NCBI RefSeq assembly: GCF_963921235.1
Contig: NC_086097.1
Location: 7,750,001 to 7,814,000 of the forward strand
Origin: Mobula hypostoma
Lineage: Eukaryota
Reading direction: 5' to 3'
DNA: 64,000 nt
Position numbers and translations under genes: made by a program. Within the stretch, counting starts at the first letter, position 1, and each line of letters starts with the position of its first letter. The notes beneath the pieces were generated by a model. The model did not search any database and was not told the DNA's origin. It was given only the letters and a program-made list of their open reading frames with translations. Below are positions 24,234 through 61,494 of the stretch, piece after piece.

Positions 24234-24933
24234 AATAAATGCTTTAGGTTCCAATTTCTGGGGATGTGGCAGCCGTATAGTCCTAAAGCCAACTGCCCAG
24301 TCAGCATCAACACTTAACAACTGACAGGGAGTTTCCTACACTCCAGGAACTGGATATGCTGTTGCCATCACTTTCCATACCTGAAACCTTGGAGCAGATG
24401 GACTGCCAGACAGCACAATGTAGAACCAGCAAAGGGTATCAAATTATTATTTTTAACAAGAGACCTTTGTTTCTTCAATTCCAGAAATATATCTTCTCTT
24501 GGCATGTTTTTGGGAAACTTATAGTGTGATAAAACAAATATCACTGTGCACAAGTAGAAGAATAATAAACCACATTTGTAGAAAGGTGAAATAACATAAC
24601 CCACAATATTAACTTCAGTAAAAGGGCATGAGTTGACTTTTTCACATAAAGGCACAATTCAAGCTTTCTGGTCATTAAAGTGAGGTCTGCTTTTGAAAGG
24701 AATTGAATTATTTCCCACTCACTGCACCCAATATCAATACTCAACCACTCCCAAGCCAAGTATAGCACAGGCCAAATATCGATGTTAGCTCCATCCTTGT
24801 TTTTCAAGTGTTTCCTCATCAACATAGGACAGTTGAATTACTGTAGAGGTACAAAAGTAAGATGCCTTTGAGTTACACACATCGAAGTTGCTGGTGAACG
24901 CAGCAGGCCAGGCAGCATCTCTAGGAAGAGGTA

Positions 24934-24971
24934 CAGTCGACGTTTCGGGCTGAGACCCTTCGTCAGGACTA
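24934..24971 (-). ncRNA. Minimal type-I hammerhead ribozyme motif
   Basis: TAGTC-CTGACGA-AGGGTCTCAGCCC-GAAACGTC^GACTG on the minus strand. Confidence 0.8.
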
Positions 24972-25626
24972 ACTGAAGAAAGAGCTAGTAAGAAATTTGA
25001 AAGTGGGAGGGGGAGGGGGAGATCCAAAATGATAGGAGAAGACAGGAGGGGGAGGGATGGAGCCAAGAGCTGGACAGGTGATTGGCAAAAGGGATATGAG
25101 AGGATCATGGGACAGGAGGCCCAGAGAGAAGGAAAAGGGGGAGGGGGGATAAAACCCAGAGGATGGGCAAGGGGTATAGTCAGAGGGATAAAGGAGAGAG
25201 AGAGAAAGAATGTGTGTATGTAAATAAATAACGGATGGGATACGAGGGGGAGATGGGGCATTAACGGAAGTTAGAGAAGTCAATGTTCATACCATCAGGT
25301 TGGAGGCTACCCAGACGGAATATAAGGTGTTGTTCCTCCAACCTGAGTGTGGCTTCATCTTTACAGTAGAGTAGACCGTGGATAGACATATCAGAATGGG
25401 AATGGGATGTGGAATTAAAATTCCTCGTGTTTAAGTCCAGGACCAGCCTATTGGCTCAGGGTGTCTGACCCACCGAGAGAGAAGTTGTAAAGTTTGATGA
25501 CCACAGGCAGGAGTGACTTCCTGTCCAGGTCTTGGCTCCATCCTTCCCCCTCCTGTCTTCTCCTATCATTTTGGATCTCCCCCTCCCCCTCCAACTTTCA
25601 AATCTCTTACTCACTCTTCCTTCAGT

Positions 25627-25664
25627 TAGTCCTGACGAAGGGTCTCGGCCTGAAACGTCGACTG
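25627..25664 (+). ncRNA. Minimal type-I hammerhead ribozyme motif
   Basis: TAGTC-CTGACGA-AGG(GTCTCGG)CCT-GAAACGTC^GACTG; stems I and II pair; predicted cleavage after 25659. Confidence 0.85.
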
Positions 25665-25849
25665 CACCTCTTCCTAGAGATGCTGCCTGGCCTGCTGCGT
25701 TCACCAACAACTTTGATGTGTGTTGCTTGAATTTCCAGCATCTGCAGAATTCCTGTTCTATGCCTTTGAGTTATGTTAGCAACCTGAGGCATCCAGGTGT
25801 TGAACACTAGGGCAATTTGAAGGACAGTTTTTCAGTGATAATATTCATT

Positions 25850-27039: not shown

Positions 27040-28065
27040 GCAACACACGTAAAAGTTGCTGGTGAACGCAGCAGGCCAGACAGCATCTATAGGAAGATGT
27101 TTCGGGCTGAGACCCTTCGTCAGGACTAACTGAAAGAAACGCTAGTAAGAGATTTGAGAGGGGGAGGGGGAGATCCAAAACGATAGGAGATGGGGTACAA
27201 GTGGGAGGAAGGGCATTAACGGAAGTTAGAGAAGTCGATGTTCACGCCATCAAGTTAGAGGCTACCCAGACGGAATATAAGGTGTTATTCCTCCAACCTG
27301 AGTGTGGTTTCATCTTGACAGTAGAGGAGGCCGTGGATAGACATCAGAATGGGAATGGGACGTGGAATTAAAATGTGTGGCCACTGAGAGACCCTGCTTT
27401 CTCTGGCAGACAGAGTGTAGGTGTTCAGTGAAATGGTCTCCCAGTCTGTGCCGGGTGTCGCCAATATATAGAAGGCCACATCGGGAGCACCGGACGCAGT
27501 ATATCACCCCAGCCGACTCACAGGTGAAGTGTCGCCTCACCTAGAAGGACTGTCTGGGGCCCTGAATGGTAGGAAGTATAAGGGCATGTGTAGCACTTGT
27601 CCTGCTTACAAGGATAAGTGCTGGGAGGGAGATTAGTGGGGAGGTATGGGGGGAGGGGGAACGAATGGACAAGGGAGTCGCAAAGGGAGCGATCCCTGCG
27701 GAAAGTGGGGGGGCAGGGGAGGGAAAGATGTGCTTAGTGGTGGGATCCCATTGGAGGTGGCGGAAGTTACGGAGAATTATATGTTGGACCTGGGGGCTGC
27801 TGGGGTGGTAGGTGAGGACCAGGGGAACCCTATTCCTAGTGGGGTGGCAGGAGGATGGGGTGAGAGCAGATGTGTGTGAAATGGGAGAGATGCGTTTGAG
27901 AGCAGAGTTGATGGTGGAGGAAGGGAAACCCCTTTCTTTAAAAAAGGAGGACATCTCCTTCATCCTGGAATGAAAGGCCTCATTCCTCCCTCACCACCAT
28001 TCAGGACCCCAGACTGTCCTTCCAGGTGAGGCGACACTTCACCTGTGAGTCGGCTGGGGTGATAT
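27040..28065 (-). mobile_element. Penelope-like element with deletions and a short 5' inversion (about 27983-28065 on +)
   Basis: GIY-YIG ORF 27310-27540; the + piece TTCCTCCCTCACCACC...GGGGTGATATA is the reverse complement of 27500-27570; hammerhead at about 27097-27128 lacks the 3' strand of stem I. Confidence 0.9.
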
Positions 28066-29114
28066 ATAATAAATAAGAAGATTCAACACTCAACTATTGT
28101 TACAACAGTAATAACAATAAATAAAGAATGAATATCAAGAACACGAGATGAGGAATTCTTGAAAGAGAGTACAGTTCAGTAGGAGCATTTTAGTGATGCG
28201 GCGAATGAAGTTATCCCCTCTGGTTCAAGAGTTTGGTGGTTGAGGGGTAATAACTGTGCCTGGTCATGTGAATACCTTTTTCCTGAAAGCTGCGGAGAGA
28301 AGAGAGCATGGCCTAGGTGGTGGAGGTCCATGATGACGGATGCTGCTACTTGATGGATATTATTAAACATAAGAAATAAATAGGAGCAGGAGTAGGCCAT
28401 CTAGTCCATCGAGCCTGTTCCACTATTCCATAAGATCATGGCTGATCTGGCCATGGACTCATCTCCACCTACCTGCCTTTTTCCCATAACGCTTAATTGC
28501 CCTGCTCTGCAAAAATATATCTAACCTTGTCTTTTTTAAGAACTGTAACTGGTGAACAGATGCATTTCTGTGTTCTGCAATACCAAATCATTTGAAACAA
28601 TAAATATTTTATTTGAAATGCTCTCAAGATGTACTAAACCCAGCAACGCACAGCAGCAAACCCCTTTCCTGCACAGTAAGAACACTTTGAAGCATTGGCT
28701 ACTCTCATGTTCAAAACATTGACGACGAGCTCCATTCAATAGAAGCAAGGTTTTGGGAGGAAAAGGTAGGATGCTTTCCAAAGGAATCAGGATTAAAGGT
28801 GAAGATGTTTGAGGATCAATGGTGTTGAAGAGAACAAATGATGAGACAAAAAAGACAAGATTCCAAGCAAAAATATCTGCCTTGTACACAGTACTTGATC
28901 ATATCGGATTTAAAACTAAGCTAACAACCAGTTGTCCTTACCAACCAGAATAAGATAAATTAACACCTATACAGTACATCACAGGAATTTGATTTACATA
29001 CATTATAAGAGCTCTAAGACTGCTTTAGCAACACAAATAAATTCAGTGCATTTGGGTAAATTTCAAAAGAAACATTGAACAAACATACAAAATATATTCT
29101 GGTGTGTATCATCT

Positions 29115-40672: not shown

Positions 40673-42260
40673 TATTACCCTGCAGTTGACTTAAATTATC
40701 TAAATTCTGAGACTATTTTAGCTCTGAATTACTAAACAACTAAACTTGCTTGATTTTCCAAGTTGCACTTTTCTTTGATAATTCCCCTATCATATAAAAT
40801 GCAGAATGATTGTCTCAGAACAGAAGCGTGGAACAATGTGTAACACGGCTTAGATTTTAAACTCATGAGGCTGAACTGTAGCTAACAAATCCATGTGAAG
40901 ATCGATAAGAGGCTAATTGCTGGCACTAGTGTGTTCCATCTGTAAATGGGAGTCAATTTGACAATTTCCAGCTCCTCTCCAAGGTCAGATGAAACCAATA
41001 GGAAATAATACCCTCTTTATTAAAGTTGCTGCTCGGGTCTCTTGGCAGTCCCATACTTGTGAATTTCAGTGTTAAATCATCAGAAGTGCCTCTTTTAAAC
41101 TCAGACAACGCATCAAGGCTTTGCCAAATTGTGCAGAAGACCAGACCACATTTTGATGATGTACTGAAAAATATTTCTAATGACCTTTTCTCCCTTGAAC
41201 AACACCGACAAACAACATAGCACAGCTAGTTTTCTATTTGTGAAAATGCTCTGGATAATAGAGTCATAAAAATGTTATTGAGAACCACAGTCAAGAAATA
41301 GGTCCTTTGGCTCATCTAGCCCATGCCAACTCTTGCCTTAAATTTGGTTGATAGTTTCCTGTGTCTATTTATATGAACACAATTGACTGGATCTGAAGTA
41401 CACTGGATTGTAAGAAATTATATGCATATCCATATTTCATATAATTGTCTTTATTTTTACTTCATTGTTAAAAGGAAACATTGTCAATATCTATCAGTTT
41501 TTATTTAATCTAATGAGTTACAAGAATTGCTTTTCTCAGTAGAGTAACCAATCCTTTATGTAAACTGATCCTTAAAGCAAATTGGACTAATATAAAACAG
41601 AATGTGTATTTGTGAATTTGCTTTCCAATTTTAAAACAATTTTTTTTTGTGATTGCATTTTTTGTATGCATGAGTCTCGAACCACTTTGACCACCTATAT
41701 GGTTTTGCACCCCAAAAACTGGTAGACTATAAGAGTACCCTTATAAGTAATCGACAGGTCAGGCAGCATTTGTTCTGATGACAGTCTGTTGACTGAATTG
41801 TTAATTCTGTTTCTCTGCCTACAGATACAGCCTGACTTTCTGAATATTTCCAAAATTTCCTGTAATATATTTTCTTTTCACTCATAGCATAAACAAGAGA
41901 AAATCAGCAGTTGCTGGAAATCCAAGCAACACACACAGAATGCTAGAGGAACTCAGCAGGCCAGGCAGTATCTAGCAAAATACAATGATGCAGGAACTCA
42001 GCAACAAAAACAATGGTACAGAAACATGGCAACACACTAAAATGGTGCAGGAAACCCTTTGACTTACATTTTTCCATATGTGCTGCCTGGCCTTCTGAGG
42101 TCCTGCAGAATTTTGTGTGTTTTGCTTTTTCACTTTTTTTTCTATTTTTGATACTATATCATTCCTTTGACTAGAACCACATTCAACAATATATTCAAGC
42201 AACACACACAAAAATTGCTGGTGAACGCAGCAGGCCAGGCAGCATCTCTAGGATGAGGTA

Positions 42261-42298
42261 CAGTCAACGTTTCAGGCCGAGAACCTTCGTCAGGACTA
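42261..42298 (-). ncRNA. Minimal hammerhead motif (cleavage triplet GUU variant)
   Basis: TAGTC-CTGACGA-AGGTTCTCGGCCT-GAAACGTT-GACTG on the minus strand. Confidence 0.75.
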
Positions 42299-43156
42299 AC
42301 TGAAGGAAGAGCTAGTAAGAGATTTGAAAGTGGGAGGGGGTGGGGGAGATCCGAAATGATAGGAGAAGACAGGAGGGGAGGGGTGGATCTAAGAGCTGGA
42401 GGAGGGAGAGGATCGTGGGATGGGAAGCCTGGGGAGAAAGAGAAGGGGGGAGGAGAGCCCAGCGGGTGGAGAGCAGGCAAGGAGTTATACTGAGCGGGAT
42501 AGAGGGAGAGAAAAGAGAGAGAGAAAAGAAAGGGGAAAAATATATAAAAATATATATTAAATAAATAAATAAGGGATGGGATGTGAAGGGGAGGAGGGGC
42601 ATTAGCGGAAGTTAGAGAAGTCAGTGCTCATGTCATCAGGTTGGAGGCTACTCAGATGGAATATAAGGTGTTGTTCCTCCAACCTGAGTGTAGCCTCATT
42701 TTAACAGTAGAAGAGGCCGTGGATAGACATATAAGAGCGGGAATGGGACGTGTCAAGATGAAGCCACACTCAGGTTGGAGGAACAACACCTTATATTCTG
42801 TCTGAGTAGCCTCCAACCTGATGGCATGAATATTGACTTCTCAAACTTCCGCTAATGTCCCTCCTCCCCTTCATACCCTATCTTTTATTTATTTATTTGA
42901 TATATTCTTTATATATTTTTCCCCCTTTCTTTTCTCTCTCTTTTTTCTCCCTCTGTCCCTCTCACTATAACTCCTTGCCTGGTCTCCACCCGCCGAGCTC
43001 CCCTCCCCCCTTCTCTTTCTCCCCAGGCTTCCCATCCCACGATCCTCTCCCTCCTCCAGCTCTTAGATCCACCCCTCCCCTCCTGTCTTCTCCTATCATT
43101 TCGGATCTCACCCACCCCTTCCCACTTACAAATGTCTTACTAGCTCTTCTTTCAGT

Positions 43157-43194
43157 TAGTCCTGACGAAGGGTCTCGGCCCGAAACGTCGACTG
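43157..43194 (+). ncRNA. Minimal type-I hammerhead ribozyme motif
   Basis: TAGTC-CTGACGA-AGGGTCTCGGCCC-GAAACGTC^GACTG; predicted cleavage after 43189. Confidence 0.82.
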
Positions 43195-44289
43195 TACCTC
43201 TTCCTAGAGATGCTGCCTGGCCTGATGCGTTCACCAGCATTTTTTGTGTGTGTGTTGCTTGAATTTCCAGCAACTGCAGATTTCCTCATGTCAGCGTTTT
43301 TAAATTCAACAATATATTGGTGATTTCATGCCCAACGATTCAGGGGCAGTTTGTCCACCTTTGCCACGAGATGCCTGAATGGACATTGAATCTCTGAACT
43401 CTTCCTCACTACTTGTCTTTCTCTTTTTGCACTTCTTATTTAATTTGACTATACACGTATTCTTTGGACTGTAATTTGTACTGCTGCCGCATTTCGATAA
43501 ATTTCATGACATATGCTGATGATATTAAACCTGATTCTGATACAGCCCACTGATACAAATTCAAGATTAAATATCTATGTACAAACTTTTATGTGCACAG
43601 GCGCCACAGTAGCATAGCAGTTAGCGTGACACTTTTACAGCTCGAGGCAGCAGAAATATAAAAATTTACACAGCACCAAATGAAGAAAAGATTACATGGA
43701 TGGTAGGGGTACGGAGGGCTATGGTCCCAGCACATGTCGATGAGACTAGGCAGCTTAAATGGTTTGGCATGGACTAGGTGGGTTGAGGACCTGCTTCTGT
43801 ACTATATTTCTTTGTGACTCTATTAGGAAGAATGTTAGAGTTTTGCCTGTGAAAAAGGCTTGAAGAAGGATTCTGAAGGAGAAAATGAATTCCTGAGTCT
43901 AGTGTAAGTTAAAATAGAGGAAGAGTTGAAGGGAGACTGAATCACCCTTGCTCATTTTCCTTGTAGTGGAAGTTGCTGAGGGGGATCTGATTGTGGTAAA
44001 ACAAATTGTTAGGGGATAAGACATATTTCCCCATTGTAGGTGAGGCAGGAGGATTAAGGTGAAATGGAAAAGGTTCACAAGGAATCTTAAGAAGAATATT
44101 TTCCTCAGGGTGGTTAGAAGCTGACAACAGTCAAGAAACATCTGGATCCCCGTAAAAACATATGGGGGTAGGAAGTTTAAATGATTTGGCATGGACTAGA
44201 TGGGTGAAAGGCTTGTGTTGTATTTTTCTATGACTCTGTGACTCTATATGCGTGTGATAAATTGGAATAGATTAGATTGGTACTTGTTT

Positions 44290-58104: not shown

Positions 58105-58627
58105 AGAGAAGGGAAATGCACCTCACTGCAGATATCCTTGTATGTCATAGTAGCTATGCATCCTCAAGCATCCATTAAATAACTGGTACTTTCTCCAACC
58201 ATGCTTCCAATTGGATTCATCTCCAAAGGTTTTAAACCATTCCCACATTTCTCCATCAACTGATCTCACCCAGCAACATAATGCTGATTCTTTGGATGAT
58301 CCTGACGTCCCCTTTCTCTCGCCCACACTCATTATTGACACCACCTTAAGTTCCCTTACACCAAAGACTCTCTCTTCCACTTTGATCACGGAGCTGCCTT
58401 GTTTCCTCCACCTGTTCTCAAACAATAATCGGGCTTTGTTCTTCACACAGCAGAGAACTTAAACTGCCTGTAGCCTCAGAGAAAAGCAGCACAGGCTTCC
58501 CCACATGGTATAGACTTAATGTGCCTGTTGAGATAAAACAAGAATTTCAAAGCCGATATTCTGTAAATTCAGACCAGAAACAAACTGACCTGGAGAGCCA
58601 CCTAATACCAGACTAATTCTTTGTGCG

Positions 58628-59506
58628 CAGACATGAGGAAAGCTGCAGATGCTGGAAGTTCAAGCAACACGCACAAAAAGTGTTGGTGAACACATCAGGC
58701 CAGGCAGCATCTATAGGAAGAGGTACAATCGACGTTTTGAGCCGGGACCCTTCATCAGGACGAACTGAAAGAAGAGATAGTAAGACATTTGTAAATGGGA
58801 GGGGGTGGGTGAGATCCGAAATGATAGGAGAAGACAGGAGGGGAGGGGTGGATCTAAGAGCTGGAGGAGGGAGAGGATCATGGGACAGAAAGCCTGGGGA
58901 GAAAGAGAAGGGGGGAGGGGAGCTCGGCGGGTGGAGAGCAGGCAAGGAGTTATAGTAAGAGGGACAGACGGAGAAAAAAGAGAGAGAGAAAAAAATGGGG
59001 AAAAAAAATATATATTAAAAAATATTAAATAAATAAATAAGGGATGGGGTGTGAAGGGGAGGAGGGGCATTAACAGAAGTTAAAGAAGTCAGGTTGGAGG
59101 TTACCCAGACGGAATATAAGATGTTGTTCCTCCAACCTGAGTGTGGCTTCATCTTGACAGTAGAGGAGGCCATGGATAGGCGTATCAGAATGGGAATTAA
59201 AATGTGTGGCCACTGGGAGATCTTGCTTTCCCTGGCGGACAGAGCGTAGGTATTCAGCGAAACTGTCTCCCGGTCTGCGTCGGGTCTCGCCAATATATAA
59301 AAGGCCACATCGGGAGCACCGGACGCAGTATATCACCCCAGCCGACTCACAGGTGAAGTGTCGCCTCACCTGGAAGGACTGTCTGGGGCCCTGAATGGTG
59401 GTGAGGGAGGAAGTGTAAGGGCATGTGTAGCACTTGTTCTGCTTTGACTGTACCTTTTCCTATAGAGACTGCCTGGCCTGCTGCGTTCACCAGCATTTTT
59501 TGTGTG
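58628..59506. mobile_element. Penelope insertion: minus arm 58628-59444 plus short inverted tail 59446-59506
   Basis: GIY-YIG ORF 59070-59369; 14-bp direct repeat TAATTCTTTGTGCG (58614-58627) / TAATCCTTTGTGCG (59507-59520); hammerhead at 58726-58763 has a GAAA>AAAA change. Confidence 0.92.
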
Positions 59507-61494
59507 TAATCCTTTGTGCGGTTGATGGGAAACAACTTCTGGAGGTGACTTTTATTCACACAGCCTTGGCAACACCATCCCAACTCAATGAATAATGATT
59601 ATGTGCCCATTTGTTTCACTGTTTGTGGCCAGATAGAAATTGGCTGTTGCTTCTATCCAACCGACAGCAATGAGTCCAGCACAGAAGTAATTCATTGCCT
59701 GTGGAGCACCTTGGGGCTTCCTGGACAGATTATCCCATTTTTTATTTCATCGCCATTTCCAGGTTTTTGCCGCATCTAATTTTCTGTCACTTGCTTTTGG
59801 ATTTTAAAGTAGTTCAGAAGAATTTCATTAGTTGTGAAGTAATTCAGGAACTTTCCCCAGCACAAAATGGTGCTATTGTAATGGAATTTCATTTGCTATG
59901 TATACATTACTTTTATTATCTTTTAATTGAGATACAGCCTGGAATAGGCCCTTCTGGCCCTTCAAGCTGCATTGCCCAACAATCCTCCAGTTTATTCCTA
60001 GCCAAATCATGGGACAATTTACAATAACTATTCAATCTAATAACCAGCATGTTTCTGAACCATGGGAAGAAACCAGAACACCTAGAAGTTCCTAACAGGA
60101 GCTATTAGTGATTGGTTATAAATGCTGGTCCTGCTACCAATAGTCCCATTCTACAAAAAAAATACCACTGTTTGTACTTTACATGGGATTTATTTCTCTC
60201 ATGAATCTTTAACTGGGCTGACGCTACAATTACAGATTGACAAGTTCTGGCTGAGTACACCAAACTGTTACAGTTCATGCCAGGAGGCACTGGGGTCTGT
60301 AAATCTACCGTCGTGAGCAAAATTGCAAAGGAAATCCTATCGGCAAATAATGACAGGTGACAATGGAAATTACTTGCCCAGCAGAGGATGTAAACTCAAG
60401 CAAGTTACAGGACCCGACACTGCATATCTAGTTTGAAGACTTCAGGGAGGCTTACTAATCTGGCTATACTTTGCCTGCGCTGTTCACCCACAGCTACTGA
60501 CCTCATTTTTCTCTCTTCCCCCCCCCCACCCTCCACAAACACATGTCAGCCCTCCAGTCTTCTCGAATAGGACCTCTCAGTATGGCACCATAAGTCAAAA
60601 GAAGGAAATGTTTTTGCCTTGTTTGTTCATTCATACAGCCAGAGGGAGAACTGTTAATATTGGAAGCTACGAGAAGAAAGAATGAAGAAAGATGTAAGCC
60701 TGGAGGACAACAACATCAAAGAAGTTAAATGTAATCTGTCTCATTTATACTGTGTTGACCTCCAGCAAGCAGCAATAGGTTTTGAATTTACACTGTATAA
60801 ATAAACTATGTCTGTAAAGGTCTGTGTTACCAGCAGAGCCACCTAGTTTTAAAGTATATTGAGGAAGTTCTGTTTTTTGTCAAGTGTAGAAAAATAAGAG
60901 GTGGCATGGTCGTGTAGTAGCTTACAGCGCCAGTGATCCAGTTTTAGCTCTTGCCGTTGTCTGTAAGGAGTTCGTCCGTTCCTTCCATCACCATGTGGGT
61001 CTTCTCCAGCTGCTCCAAGGACTTTTGGGTTGGTTGGTTAATTGGACACAGGAAGTATTGGGCAGCACAGGCTCGTTGGGCTTTATCTCTCTATAAAATA
61101 AAATAAAGAAAAGAAAGTTGACCCTTCTAAAAGGGAGCTCCTTCACCCAGCGGGTGGCGAAAGTGTGGAACGAGGCAGCGTCAGGGGTGGTGGATGCGGG
61201 TTTGATTTCAACATTTATGAGTAAATTGGATAAGTACATGAATGGGAGGGGTAAGGAGGGCTATGGTTCAGGTGCAAGTCGTTGGGACTAGGTAGAATAA
61301 CCGTTTGGCATGGACTAGATGGGCTGAAGGGCCTGTTCTGTGCTGTAGCACTACATGAATCTATGACTCTGTTGAAAACCTGAGTACTGGCTGACTAAGT
61401 GTTGCCAAGGATGGAAGAAAGAGGAAGAACAAGATAGACAAAGCACAGGGACAGGCCCTTCAGATCACAACGCAGTGCCAAAACCAATACGTGG

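What the first reader, a model, noticed from the sequence alone, without database searches (positions are those of the whole stretch)
42181..43318. 1.1-kb tail-out Penelope palindrome inserted as one unit, ribozyme at each outer end
Seen: two arms of about 550 bp in opposite orientation join with a 2-nt TG overlap at 42751-42752 and leave about 45 nt unpaired. The whole structure is bounded by a 15-bp direct repeat (ATTCAACAATATATT). Inference: both nicked strands of one target primed reverse transcription from a 3' tail, producing one fold-back insertion. Read-through transcription on either strand would give a long hairpin with a hammerhead near its 3' end, a possible dsRNA or small-RNA source.
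Basis: partly seen in the sequence, partly recalled or inferred. Interest (0 to 1): 0.75.

Follow-up and report, generated by a model that had tools for sequence, protein, structure and literature searches.

The report
Head-to-head Penelope retrotransposon double insertion
This is a decayed double copy of a Penelope-type jumping gene, two truncated copies joined head to head by a single insertion event, a layout already described for this class of element and very common in this genome.

Summary
Two arms, 42196-42750 (minus) and 42751-43303 (plus), are 92% alike. An exact 15-bp repeat bounds them.

Each arm is the 3' end of a Penelope-like element (PLE). Each holds the last codons of the endonuclease, a 3' UTR and a minimal hammerhead motif. 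Rfam does not detect that motif.

The layout is known for PLEs: an inverted 5'-truncated copy, one target-site duplication (TSD) round the whole insert, and a short "tail" on one end only (PMC3846280, PMC8557442). It is common here. An abutting inverted partner occurs in 11 of 30 loci of one sample and 9-10 of 25 of another.

All 20 complete pairs have flanking repeats of 8-16 bp. Mismatched-flank controls average 5. All 20 have exactly one tailed arm. Twelve single copies split 6:6.

In this palindrome each arm holds element sequence the other lacks: 44 inner nt on the left, a 47-nt tail on the right. Neither arm is therefore a copy of the other. The best explanation is reverse transcription primed from both nicked strands of one target, with the two cDNAs then joined at a 2-nt microhomology.

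The dsRNA or small-RNA idea has a published precedent and is untested here. The hammerhead would lie buried in the hairpin stem.

Verdict: ordinary, low novelty.

The parts
42181..42195 (.). Left copy of the 15-bp target-site duplication ATTCAACAATATATT
   Evidence: Exact repeat of 43304-43318. It abuts the outer end of the left arm.
42196..42750 (-). Left arm: a 5'-truncated PLE 3' end in minus orientation, of the tail-less type. Its outer end stops in ...GTGTTGCTTG(AAT).
   Evidence: 90.4% identity to family copy L003 over 544 nt. 92% identity to the right arm.
42257..42299 (-). Left-arm minimal hammerhead motif with 3 substitutions: two weaken helix II, and C17 is changed to U.
   Evidence: Alignment of 45 copies, read by hand against the criteria in PMC4209133.
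42602..42750 (-). Left-arm remnant of the C-terminal GIY-YIG endonuclease coding region, with an in-frame stop.
   Evidence: Translation ...NEATLRLEEQHLIFHLSSLQPDDMSTDFSNFR matches the C-terminus of the 974-aa frame in L037.
42707..42750 (-). 44 nt of element sequence present only in the left arm. This is the unpaired centre of the palindrome.
   Evidence: Right-arm base 1 aligns to base 45 of the reversed left arm. Homology to L003 continues through this stretch.
42751..42752 (.). TG shared by both arms at the inner junction (2-nt microhomology)
   Evidence: the minus-arm homology ends at 42752 and the plus-arm homology starts at 42751.
42751..43303 (+). Right arm: a 5'-truncated PLE 3' end in plus orientation, of the tailed type.
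   Evidence: 91.2% identity to L003 over 547 nt. 7002 first-look candidates in the genome, of which 40 were scored.
42751..42855 (+). Right-arm remnant of the last 34 codons of the GIY-YIG endonuclease, plus the stop codon.
   Evidence: CQDEATLRLEEQHLIFCLSSLQPDGMNIDFSNFR* compared with the L037 C-terminus.
43156..43198 (+). Right-arm minimal hammerhead motif. Helix I is UAGUC/GACUG. CUGACGA lies at 43162-43168, the extra A at 43169, helix II at 43170-43181 and GAAA at 43182-43185. ACGU is palindromic, and the predicted cut is after C 43189.
   Evidence: Identical to the family majority at 43 of 43 positions. The features match those listed in PMC4209133. Rfam is negative.
43257..43303 (+). 47-nt 'tail' present only on the right arm.
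   Evidence: Absent from the left arm. Present in other copies, e.g. L008, L009, L013, L015, L024. It is unpaired in the fold.
43304..43318 (.). Right copy of the 15-bp target-site duplication

Best explanation
The 1.1-kb palindrome is the product of one insertion of a Penelope-like retrotransposon.

Proposed steps:
1. The element's GIY-YIG endonuclease nicked the two strands of an AT-rich target 15 bp apart.
2. Each freed 3' end primed reverse transcription of element RNA. The top-strand primer (...ATATATT) started inside the RNA, in the loop of a short stem-loop, and gave the tail-less left arm. The bottom-strand primer (...TTGAAT) started about 47 nt further downstream and gave the tailed right arm.
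3. Both cDNAs stopped early, just inside the end of the endonuclease coding region and 44 nt apart.
4. Their 3' tips paired through a 2-nt TG/CA microhomology, and each was filled in on the other.
5. The result is two 3' ends facing outward, one junction in the middle, and one 15-bp duplication round the whole.

Shown: the anatomy, the single TSD, sequence unique to each arm, and recurrence with the same rules in 20 of 20 complete pairs.
Inferred: the order of events, the priming on RNA, and the joining step.

The insert is old (arms 8% apart) and broken, and nothing indicates a host function.
For: (1) One exact 15-bp TSD bounds both arms. In 20 of 20 complete pairs the flanks share an exact word of 8-16 bp. 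In 380 mismatched-flank controls the mean is 5.08, the maximum is 10, and 9 of 380 reach 8 or more.

(2) Each arm has element sequence the other lacks: 44 inner nt in the left arm and a 47-nt tail in the right arm. Neither arm can have been templated by the other. By the coordinates, the same holds in 9 of 20 pairs.

(3) Junction signatures in 21 pairs fit end joining of two free ends: overlaps of 1-14 nt in 11, blunt joins in 4, and 5-35 nt of filler in 6.

(4) All 20 pairs have one tailed and one tail-less arm. Twelve single copies from a sample chosen without regard to the tail split 6 tailed to 6 tail-less.

(5) The junction 121-mer is unique. Only its own place covers positions 1-121 among the 40 scored of 1431 first-look candidates.

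(6) A purified PLE protein cleaves and extends both strands in vitro, prefers ATT sites, and uses two RT start sites whose spacing equals the tail (PMC11167929, main text read). Here the TSD begins and ends with ATT.

(7) Family identity. [quoted passage not shown] Its inverted partner's frame reaches the GIY-YIG cutoff, 22.8 against 22.6 bits. Listed relatives carry PF00078, and about a quarter of those listed also carry PF01541.
Against: No empty orthologous site was seen.

No read-level confirmation was obtained, because the laid contigs were swamped by paralogues.

The arms are no closer to each other (91.7%) than the right arm is to the best unrelated copies (91.6% and 91.2%).

The shared-minority-variant test gives only weak support. 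The arms share 9 of 509 columns, against a background 95th percentile of 8.1 and 99th of 10.6 per 500. Other partner pairs are not consistently raised.

If the two primings were independent, tail/tail and tail-less/tail-less pairs should occur. None was seen in 20 pairs, so the simple version of the model is incomplete.

The published in vitro work saw no difference in start site between strands (PMC11167929).

RVT_1 scores stay under Pfam's cutoff.
Confidence: 0.75

Rival explanations
1. Self-priming (fold-back). A single cDNA or an antisense template snaps back on itself and is copied, so that one arm is a copy of the other. This was proposed for PLE inverted repeats in PMC3846280 (discussion passage read).
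For: Head-to-head inverted PLE copies with palindromic junctions are common, and those authors read them as self-priming (PMC3846280). The short junction overlaps here (2 nt at this locus, up to 14 nt elsewhere) could serve as snap-back sites.
Against: Each arm holds sequence absent from the other: 44 inner nt on the left and a 47-nt tail on the right. The same is true in 9 of 20 pairs. A copied arm cannot exceed its template at either end. Snap-back on a target-attached cDNA would copy the flank in inverted orientation, not produce a direct TSD. Inner ends differ by 44 nt to more than 2 kb.
Confidence: 0.1
2. Two independent insertions. A second copy landed next to, or at the 5' end of, an older copy in opposite orientation.
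For: The family is very abundant: 7002 first-look candidates for the arm and 101,736 for an RT piece. PLE endonucleases can target their own sequence (PMC11167929).
Against: Each insertion would then carry its own TSD. Instead, one TSD spans both arms here and in 20 of 20 pairs. Arms always abut with 3' ends outward: 11 of 30 loci show this arrangement and 0 of 30 show the opposite arrangement abutting. Exactly one tail occurs in 20 of 20 pairs.
Confidence: 0.04
3. Inverted duplication after insertion, through replication template switching or break repair of a single copy.
For: Palindromes can arise this way. The junction shows microhomology.
Against: This would not give the two arms different element termini, each directly abutting one copy of a direct 15-bp repeat. 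It would also not recur with the same rules at 20 unrelated loci.
Confidence: 0.03
4. Assembly artefact (a chimeric fold-back read), or a mobile fold-back unit amplified as a whole.
For: PLE tandem and inverted structures are known to trouble assemblies (PMC8557442 passage).
Against: The arms differ at 8% of positions with 6 gaps, whereas artefactual fold-backs are near identical. A TSD and unique flanks are present. The junction occurs once among the scored candidates. A contig from run X1 covers 42050-42220 without a difference, but only 25 nt of it lie inside the arm, below the tool's bridging rule.
Confidence: 0.02

Closest known systems
Typical EN+ Penelope-like element insertion with an adjacent inverted 5'-truncated copy or pLTR (Arkhipova et al. 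2013, PMC3846280; Craig et al. 2021, PMC8557442; passages read)
   Same: Head-to-head inverted copy. A TSD flanks the entire insert (8-10 bp in the rotifer, 15 bp here). A 30-40-bp 'tail' is present on one of the two inverted ends only. Copies are strongly 5'-truncated. A hammerhead lies in the terminal repeat region.
   Different: Here both members are short 5'-truncated 3' ends with no full-length copy between them. The tail is 47 nt. In this sample the one-tail rule is strict (20 of 20), not 'optional'.
PAc (Poseidon of Anolis) in vitro reaction (Frangieh et al. 2024, PMC11167929; main text read)
   Same: Both target strands are cleaved and extended. There is a preference for AT-rich targets and ATT. 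Two RT start sites are used, and their spacing equals the tail. Initiation occurs inside a stem-loop.
   Different: In vitro, no difference in start site between strands was seen, whereas genomic pairs here always combine one of each. The PAc start sites lie inside the next unit's ORF. Here they lie in the 3' UTR, about 60-110 nt past the hammerhead. The RNA at the inner site is GU-rich rather than AC-rich.
LINE-1 twin priming
   Same: The second nicked strand also primes cDNA synthesis. The two cDNAs are joined by microhomology. A single TSD flanks an insert that has an inverted part.
   Different: In L1 the second primer anneals internally on the same RNA, so the two parts cover different segments (an inversion). 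Here both arms cover the same 3' 510 nt (a palindrome).
Minimal hammerhead ribozymes of metazoan PLEs (Cervera and De la Pena 2014, PMC4209133; text parts 1-2 read)
   Same: The CUGANGA and GAAA boxes are present. [quoted passage not shown] The motif occurs as pairs on opposite strands 100-700 bp apart.
   Different: Helix II here is 4 bp with a tetraloop, against the 7-8 bp reported for Schistosoma. Activity was not tested. The left-arm copy is mutated.
siRNAs from Penelope inverted repeats in transformed D. melanogaster (Evgen'ev 2013, PMC3681739; passages read)
   Same: Rearranged Penelope copies with long inverted repeats are proposed, and were observed, as dsRNA and siRNA sources.
   Different: No RNA evidence exists for this locus. 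This copy is old and diverged (92% arm identity).

Membership tests
Penelope-like element (canonical EN+ PLE) | Single ORF with a reverse transcriptase followed by a C-terminal GIY-YIG endonuclease | tested here: met
   In L037, a long family copy, the 974-aa open frame has RVT_1 at residues 511-627 (E=7.5e-5, below cutoff) and GIY-YIG at 877-951 (E=1e-3). The partner frame scores 22.8 bits for GIY-YIG against a cutoff of 22.6. The C-terminus shows ...IYCVRCSRCGLLYIGET...EH.... All listed homologues carry RT-type Pfam domains, and about a quarter of those listed also carry GIY-YIG.
Penelope-like element (canonical EN+ PLE) | The window's arms belong to that family | tested here: met
   The arms are 90-91% identical to copy L003, which continues upstream into the RT and GIY-YIG frames. 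The arm translations match the last 32-34 residues of the L037 ORF.
Penelope-like element (canonical EN+ PLE) | Pseudo-LTRs formed by partial head-to-tail tandems | tested here: met
   Seen in the family, not at this locus. L044, L050 and L058 have an upstream partial copy ending in the tail, followed after 168-173 nt by the rest of the unit.
Penelope-like element (canonical EN+ PLE) | Adjacent inverted 5'-truncated copy, with a TSD round the whole insert and a tail at one end only | tested here: met
   for this locus. The same is true in 20 of 20 complete pairs.
Penelope-like element (canonical EN+ PLE) | RT that groups with PLE and telomerase RTs in a phylogeny | not tested
   No tree was built. 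RVT_1 hits are below cutoff, as might be expected for a divergent RT. The best named relatives are uncharacterised proteins of a bamboo shark at 66-67% identity, plus many invertebrate proteins.
Minimal hammerhead ribozyme of PLEs | Catalytic boxes CUGANGA and GAAA, with H17 at the cleavage site | tested here: met
   Right arm: CUGACGA at 43162-43168, GAAA at 43182-43185 and C17 at 43189. Left arm: the boxes are kept and position 17 is U.
Minimal hammerhead ribozyme of PLEs | [quoted passage not shown] | tested here: met
   Read by hand against the four features listed in PMC4209133: A at 43169, GGG...CCC, ACGU, and UAGUC/GACUG. In the left arm, G10.1 faces U.
Minimal hammerhead ribozyme of PLEs | Self-cleavage (as a dimer) | not testable with these tools
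   Published minimal hammerheads cleave poorly and only as dimers, or with protein (PMC4209133, PMC11167929).
Rfam hammerhead families | Covariance-model match | tested here: not met
   0 matches at gathering score in the window. No hammerhead at E<=1 in 41500-44000. This is expected, because the motif lacks helix III.

The most novel reading that the evidence does not exclude
The strict pairing of one tailed arm with one tail-less arm, 20 of 20 pairs against a 6:6 split among single copies, means the two primings are not independent. Both cDNAs would be copied from one RNA held by one, probably dimeric, element RNP that offers two distinct start sites about 45 nt apart, each usable once. Single copies would then be the same reaction in which one of the two cDNAs was lost. 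On this reading the genomic pairs are in vivo footprints of an obligatorily two-stranded, asymmetric Penelope integration reaction.
Probability: 0.3. Interest if true: 0.55.

Novelty: already known. Interest (0 to 1): 0.3.

Why it matters
As an object it does not matter much. It is one decayed example of a published Penelope insertion architecture, in a genome that holds thousands of them.

The small value lies in the census it prompted, which bears on the unsettled Penelope integration mechanism in four ways:
- One TSD surrounds both arms in 20 of 20 pairs.
- Each arm holds sequence that the other lacks.
- The junctions look like end joining.
- Every pair has exactly one tailed arm.

Together these favour priming from both target strands over the self-priming proposal. 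They also suggest a coupling between the two start sites that the in vitro work did not show.

A practical point follows. Such pairs are true insertions, not assembly errors, and repeat annotators should treat the pair as one event.

Tried and rejected
Rfam: no hammerhead at gathering score or at E<=1 near the locus. The two weak hits, snoR9_plant and MIR2606, score far below their gathering thresholds and are taken as chance.

Sequencing runs: 24 runs were listed and no holder is on record as RNA. I laid X1, X5, X9 and X10 at 92% likeness. Tens of thousands of short contigs from paralogous copies swamped the arms, and no listed piece spans the stretch. There is therefore no verdict on continuity, on an empty site in the other organisms, or on expression.

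Shared-minority-variant test for a common template. This pair shares 9 of 509 columns, against a background mean of 3.68 per 500, a 95th percentile of 8.1 and a 99th of 10.6 over 735 pairs. Other partner pairs share 0-6. The result is too weak to decide.

Arm identity as a sign of common origin. L037's arms are 98.7% alike, but unrelated young copies are equally close to them (L035 at 98.8-99.0%), so this is not informative.

TSDs of single copies. Clear repeats appear in only 6 of 18, probably because their 5' ends were placed only by alignment to one reference. This was not pursued.

Pfam on the window's own 42-aa remnant gave nothing.

A nick-site consensus beyond AT-richness was not found by eye. 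The exact repeats are 70% A+T, against 58% for the window and 65% for the flanks.

Earlier notes of this scan: nothing to show.

Pyatkov et al. 2004 is not held.
Full report
**1. What is there**

The region holds two inverted arms. The left arm is 42196-42750 (minus orientation) and the right arm is 42751-43303 (plus orientation).
- The repeat finder gives ungapped inverted segments of 382 nt at 88% and 204 nt at 85%.
- A gapped alignment gives 471/514 identities (92%) with 6 gaps.
- The right arm's first base aligns to base 45 of the reversed left arm, so 44 nt (42707-42750) belong to the left arm only.
- The right arm carries 47 outer nt (43257-43303) that the left arm lacks.
- ATTCAACAATATATT occurs exactly at 42181-42195 and 43304-43318, abutting both outer ends.
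- Aligned to an independent family copy, both arm homologies run through TG at 42751-42752.

**2. What the arms are**

Each arm begins, at its inner end, with the last 32-34 codons of an ORF (...EATLRLEEQHLIF...LQPDGMNIDFSNFR, then a stop). About 450 nt of non-coding sequence follow.

The genome holding the window is 3.48 Gb. The right arm finds 7002 first-look candidates, of which 40 were scored.

Longer copies continue upstream into RT and GIY-YIG frames.
- The decayed copy L003 gives weak hits only: RVT_1 at E=0.048 and GIY-YIG at E=0.1.
- L037's inverted partner has a 551-aa frame whose GIY-YIG reaches the Pfam cutoff, 22.8 against 22.6 bits.
- L037's C-terminus ends with the same residues as the window's arms.
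- Relatives in the protein collection all carry RT-type Pfam domains, and about a quarter of those listed also carry GIY-YIG. The best named ones are uncharacterised proteins of a bamboo shark at 66-67% identity, followed by many invertebrate proteins.
- Partial head-to-tail tandems (pseudo-LTRs) occur in L044, L050 and L058.

This is a canonical endonuclease-containing Penelope-like element (PLE). No RT phylogeny was built.

**3. The hammerhead**

Rfam finds none. Read by hand, the right arm at 43157-43194 has these parts:
- helix I, UAGUC paired with GACUG
- CUGACGA
- an extra A
- helix II, GGGU-CUCG-GCCC
- GAAA
- a palindromic ACGU in place of helix III
- C17, with the predicted cut after 43189

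These are the features that Cervera and De la Pena list for the minimal hammerheads of metazoan PLEs (PMC4209133, text read). That paper also notes pairs of such motifs on opposite strands 100-700 bp apart.

The right-arm motif equals the family majority at 43 of 43 positions. The left-arm copy has three substitutions. Across 45 copies the motif is no better conserved than the rest of the arm (0.942 against 0.939 majority fraction), as expected for neutral decay after insertion. Activity is untested. Published minimal hammerheads cleave poorly and only as dimers or with protein (PMC4209133, PMC11167929).

**4. How common the layout is**

I examined three sources.

Sample 1 was the 29 best-scoring other loci for the right arm, plus the window's own locus.
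- 11 of 30 have an abutting partner with 3' ends outward: L001, L003, L011, L012, L013, L014, L021, L024, L025, L028, L030.
- 0 of 30 have an abutting partner in the opposite arrangement.
- L011 and L018 have non-abutting copies downstream.

The 64-kb window itself holds two more clean pairs, at 24871-25754 and 58627-59507, and one incomplete pair near 27040-28066.

Sample 2 was chosen with an RT piece, so without regard to the 3' end. That search gave 101,736 first-look candidates, of which 141 were scored. I examined 25 loci:
- 9 are clear pairs: L035, L039, L040, L041, L046, L047, L053, L054, L055.
- 1 is complex (L051).
- 3 are tandems.
- 12 are single copies.

L037 was picked separately for its long open frame, and it is also a pair.

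**5. Rules of the pairs**

Twenty pairs have both outer ends intact. Five were dropped:
- L030: the outer part of the minus arm is missing.
- The pair near 27 kb in the window: the plus arm is 3'-truncated.
- L035 and L051: an outer end lies beyond the locus.
- L054: the plus arm is cut at position 66 of the 154-nt end probe.

Four rules emerge.

(a) Flanking repeats. All 20 have a direct repeat at the two outer ends, with an exact shared word of 8-16 bp (15 of 20 are 12 bp or longer). In 380 mismatched-flank controls the mean is 5.08, the maximum is 10, and 9 of 380 reach 8 or more. The repeats are 70% A+T, against 58% for the window.

(b) One tail. All 20 combine one tailed arm (ending at probe position 137-154) with one tail-less arm (ending at 99-115, or at 75 in L014). 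Among the 12 single copies of sample 2, 6 are tailed and 6 are tail-less. If the arms chose independently at that frequency, half of all pairs would be mixed. For the 11 pairs not found through a tailed query, 11 of 11 mixed has a chance of about 5e-4. This figure is my own arithmetic.

(c) Junctions. Among 21 pairs, 11 show overlaps of 1-14 nt, 4 are blunt, and 6 have 5-35 nt of filler.

(d) Inner ends. The two arms' inner ends differ by 44 nt to more than 2 kb. The tail-less arm reaches further 5' in 9 of 20 pairs and the tailed arm in 11 of 20 (coordinates).

**6. Mechanism**

One TSD round both arms excludes two separate insertions.

The junction 121-mer occurs once: only its own place covers it fully among the 40 scored of 1431 candidates. 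The palindrome is therefore not an amplified unit.

An assembly fold-back would be near identical, whereas these arms differ by 8% with indels.

The main published alternative is self-priming (PMC3846280, discussion passage). It requires one arm to be copied from the other. Here each arm contains element sequence the other lacks, the inner 44 nt on the left and the tail on the right. The same holds in 9 of 20 pairs. Snap-back on a target-bound cDNA would also invert the flank instead of duplicating it directly.

What remains is reverse transcription primed from both nicked strands, followed by annealing of the two cDNA tips at a microhomology and fill-in.

This agrees with the PAc in vitro work. 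That protein cleaves and extends both strands, prefers ATT, and uses two RT start sites separated by the length of the tail (PMC11167929, main text read).

At this locus the sequence fits such priming, which I infer from it:
- The top-strand primer ends in ATT and could pair with AAU in the loop of the stem-loop GUUGCU-UGAAUUUCC-AGCAAC.
- The bottom-strand primer ends in TGAAT and could pair with AUUCA. In tandem copies AUUCA follows the tail directly (...TTTTTAA then ATTCACTAC...).

**7. What is not explained**

The strict one-tail rule is stronger than the literature's 'optional' or 'often' (PMC3846280, PMC8557442). It is also not predicted by the in vitro finding of equal start sites on both strands. 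It suggests that the two primings are coupled, for example one RNA with two start sites in one dimeric particle. That is the novel reading, and I give it about 0.3.

**8. The dsRNA idea**

A transcript across the insert is predicted to fold into one long hairpin, with a minimum free energy of -941.5 kcal/mol. The 44-nt centre and the tail remain unpaired, and the hammerhead lies inside the stem.

Inverted Penelope copies as siRNA sources are in print for transformed flies (PMC3681739, passages read). No RNA evidence could be obtained here.

**9. Verdict**

The finding is real and correctly read in its main point. It is an ordinary, already described Penelope insertion architecture, old and decayed, with no sign of a host function.

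[quoted passage not shown] My literature searches were.

Noticed in passing
window 41893-42127: An older, shorter structure of the same kind lies 54 bp upstream. A tailed minus-orientation end (41893-41974, 82% identical to the family) faces a tail-less plus-orientation end (about 42065-42127). Between them lie about 90 nt containing two or three degenerate tandem repeats of the 25-30 nt next to the inner start site, which may reflect repeated abortive initiation. A possible 8-bp flanking repeat (TTTTCACT) is not convincing.
   Followed up: partly
window 24871-25754 and 58627-59507: Two more complete head-to-head pairs of the same family lie in this window. Their TSDs are ATGCCTTTGAGTTA (14 bp exact) and AAT[T/C]CTTTGTGCG (13 bp, 1 mismatch), and each has one tailed arm. 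The second has a plus arm of only 62 nt. The first has about 100 nt between the arms that did not align to the family reference copy (L003).
   Followed up: yes
window 27042-28066: An incomplete pair. The minus arm has an internal deletion and abuts an 84-nt plus piece that ends inside the ORF region. No TSD could be assessed.
   Followed up: partly
L037 (G000:C2:29359600-29367600): A young pair whose arms are 98.7% identical over 1972 nt. They carry open frames of 974 and 551 aa. The TSD is a 12-bp CAATCCAAGTGT. Together with many long open frames, this suggests the family was active recently.
   Followed up: partly
L044, L050, L058: Partial head-to-tail tandems. An upstream partial copy ending in the full tail is followed after 168-173 nt by the rest of the unit. 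The tail therefore runs directly into the 5' region of the next unit, and the full unit is about 3.5 kb.
   Followed up: partly
Sample 2 loci (L032-L036, L039-L058): Single copies are tailed or tail-less in equal numbers (6:6), while pairs are always mixed. This would fit single copies being pairs that lost one cDNA.
   Followed up: partly
window 42050-43450 in runs X1, X5, X9, X10: Contigs from runs labelled as four different organisms all carry the family's words at very high summed depth. The family, or close relatives of it, is therefore abundant in several organisms. The unique left flank (42144-42190) has low but non-zero depth in X1, X5 and X9.
   Followed up: no
window 41778-41885 (-) and 42086-42239 (+): Weak Rfam matches to snoR9_plant (30.3 bits against a gathering score of 43) and MIR2606 (27.1 against 139.7). 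The second is just the inverted GT-rich ends of two neighbouring PLE fragments. Both are taken as chance.
   Followed up: no
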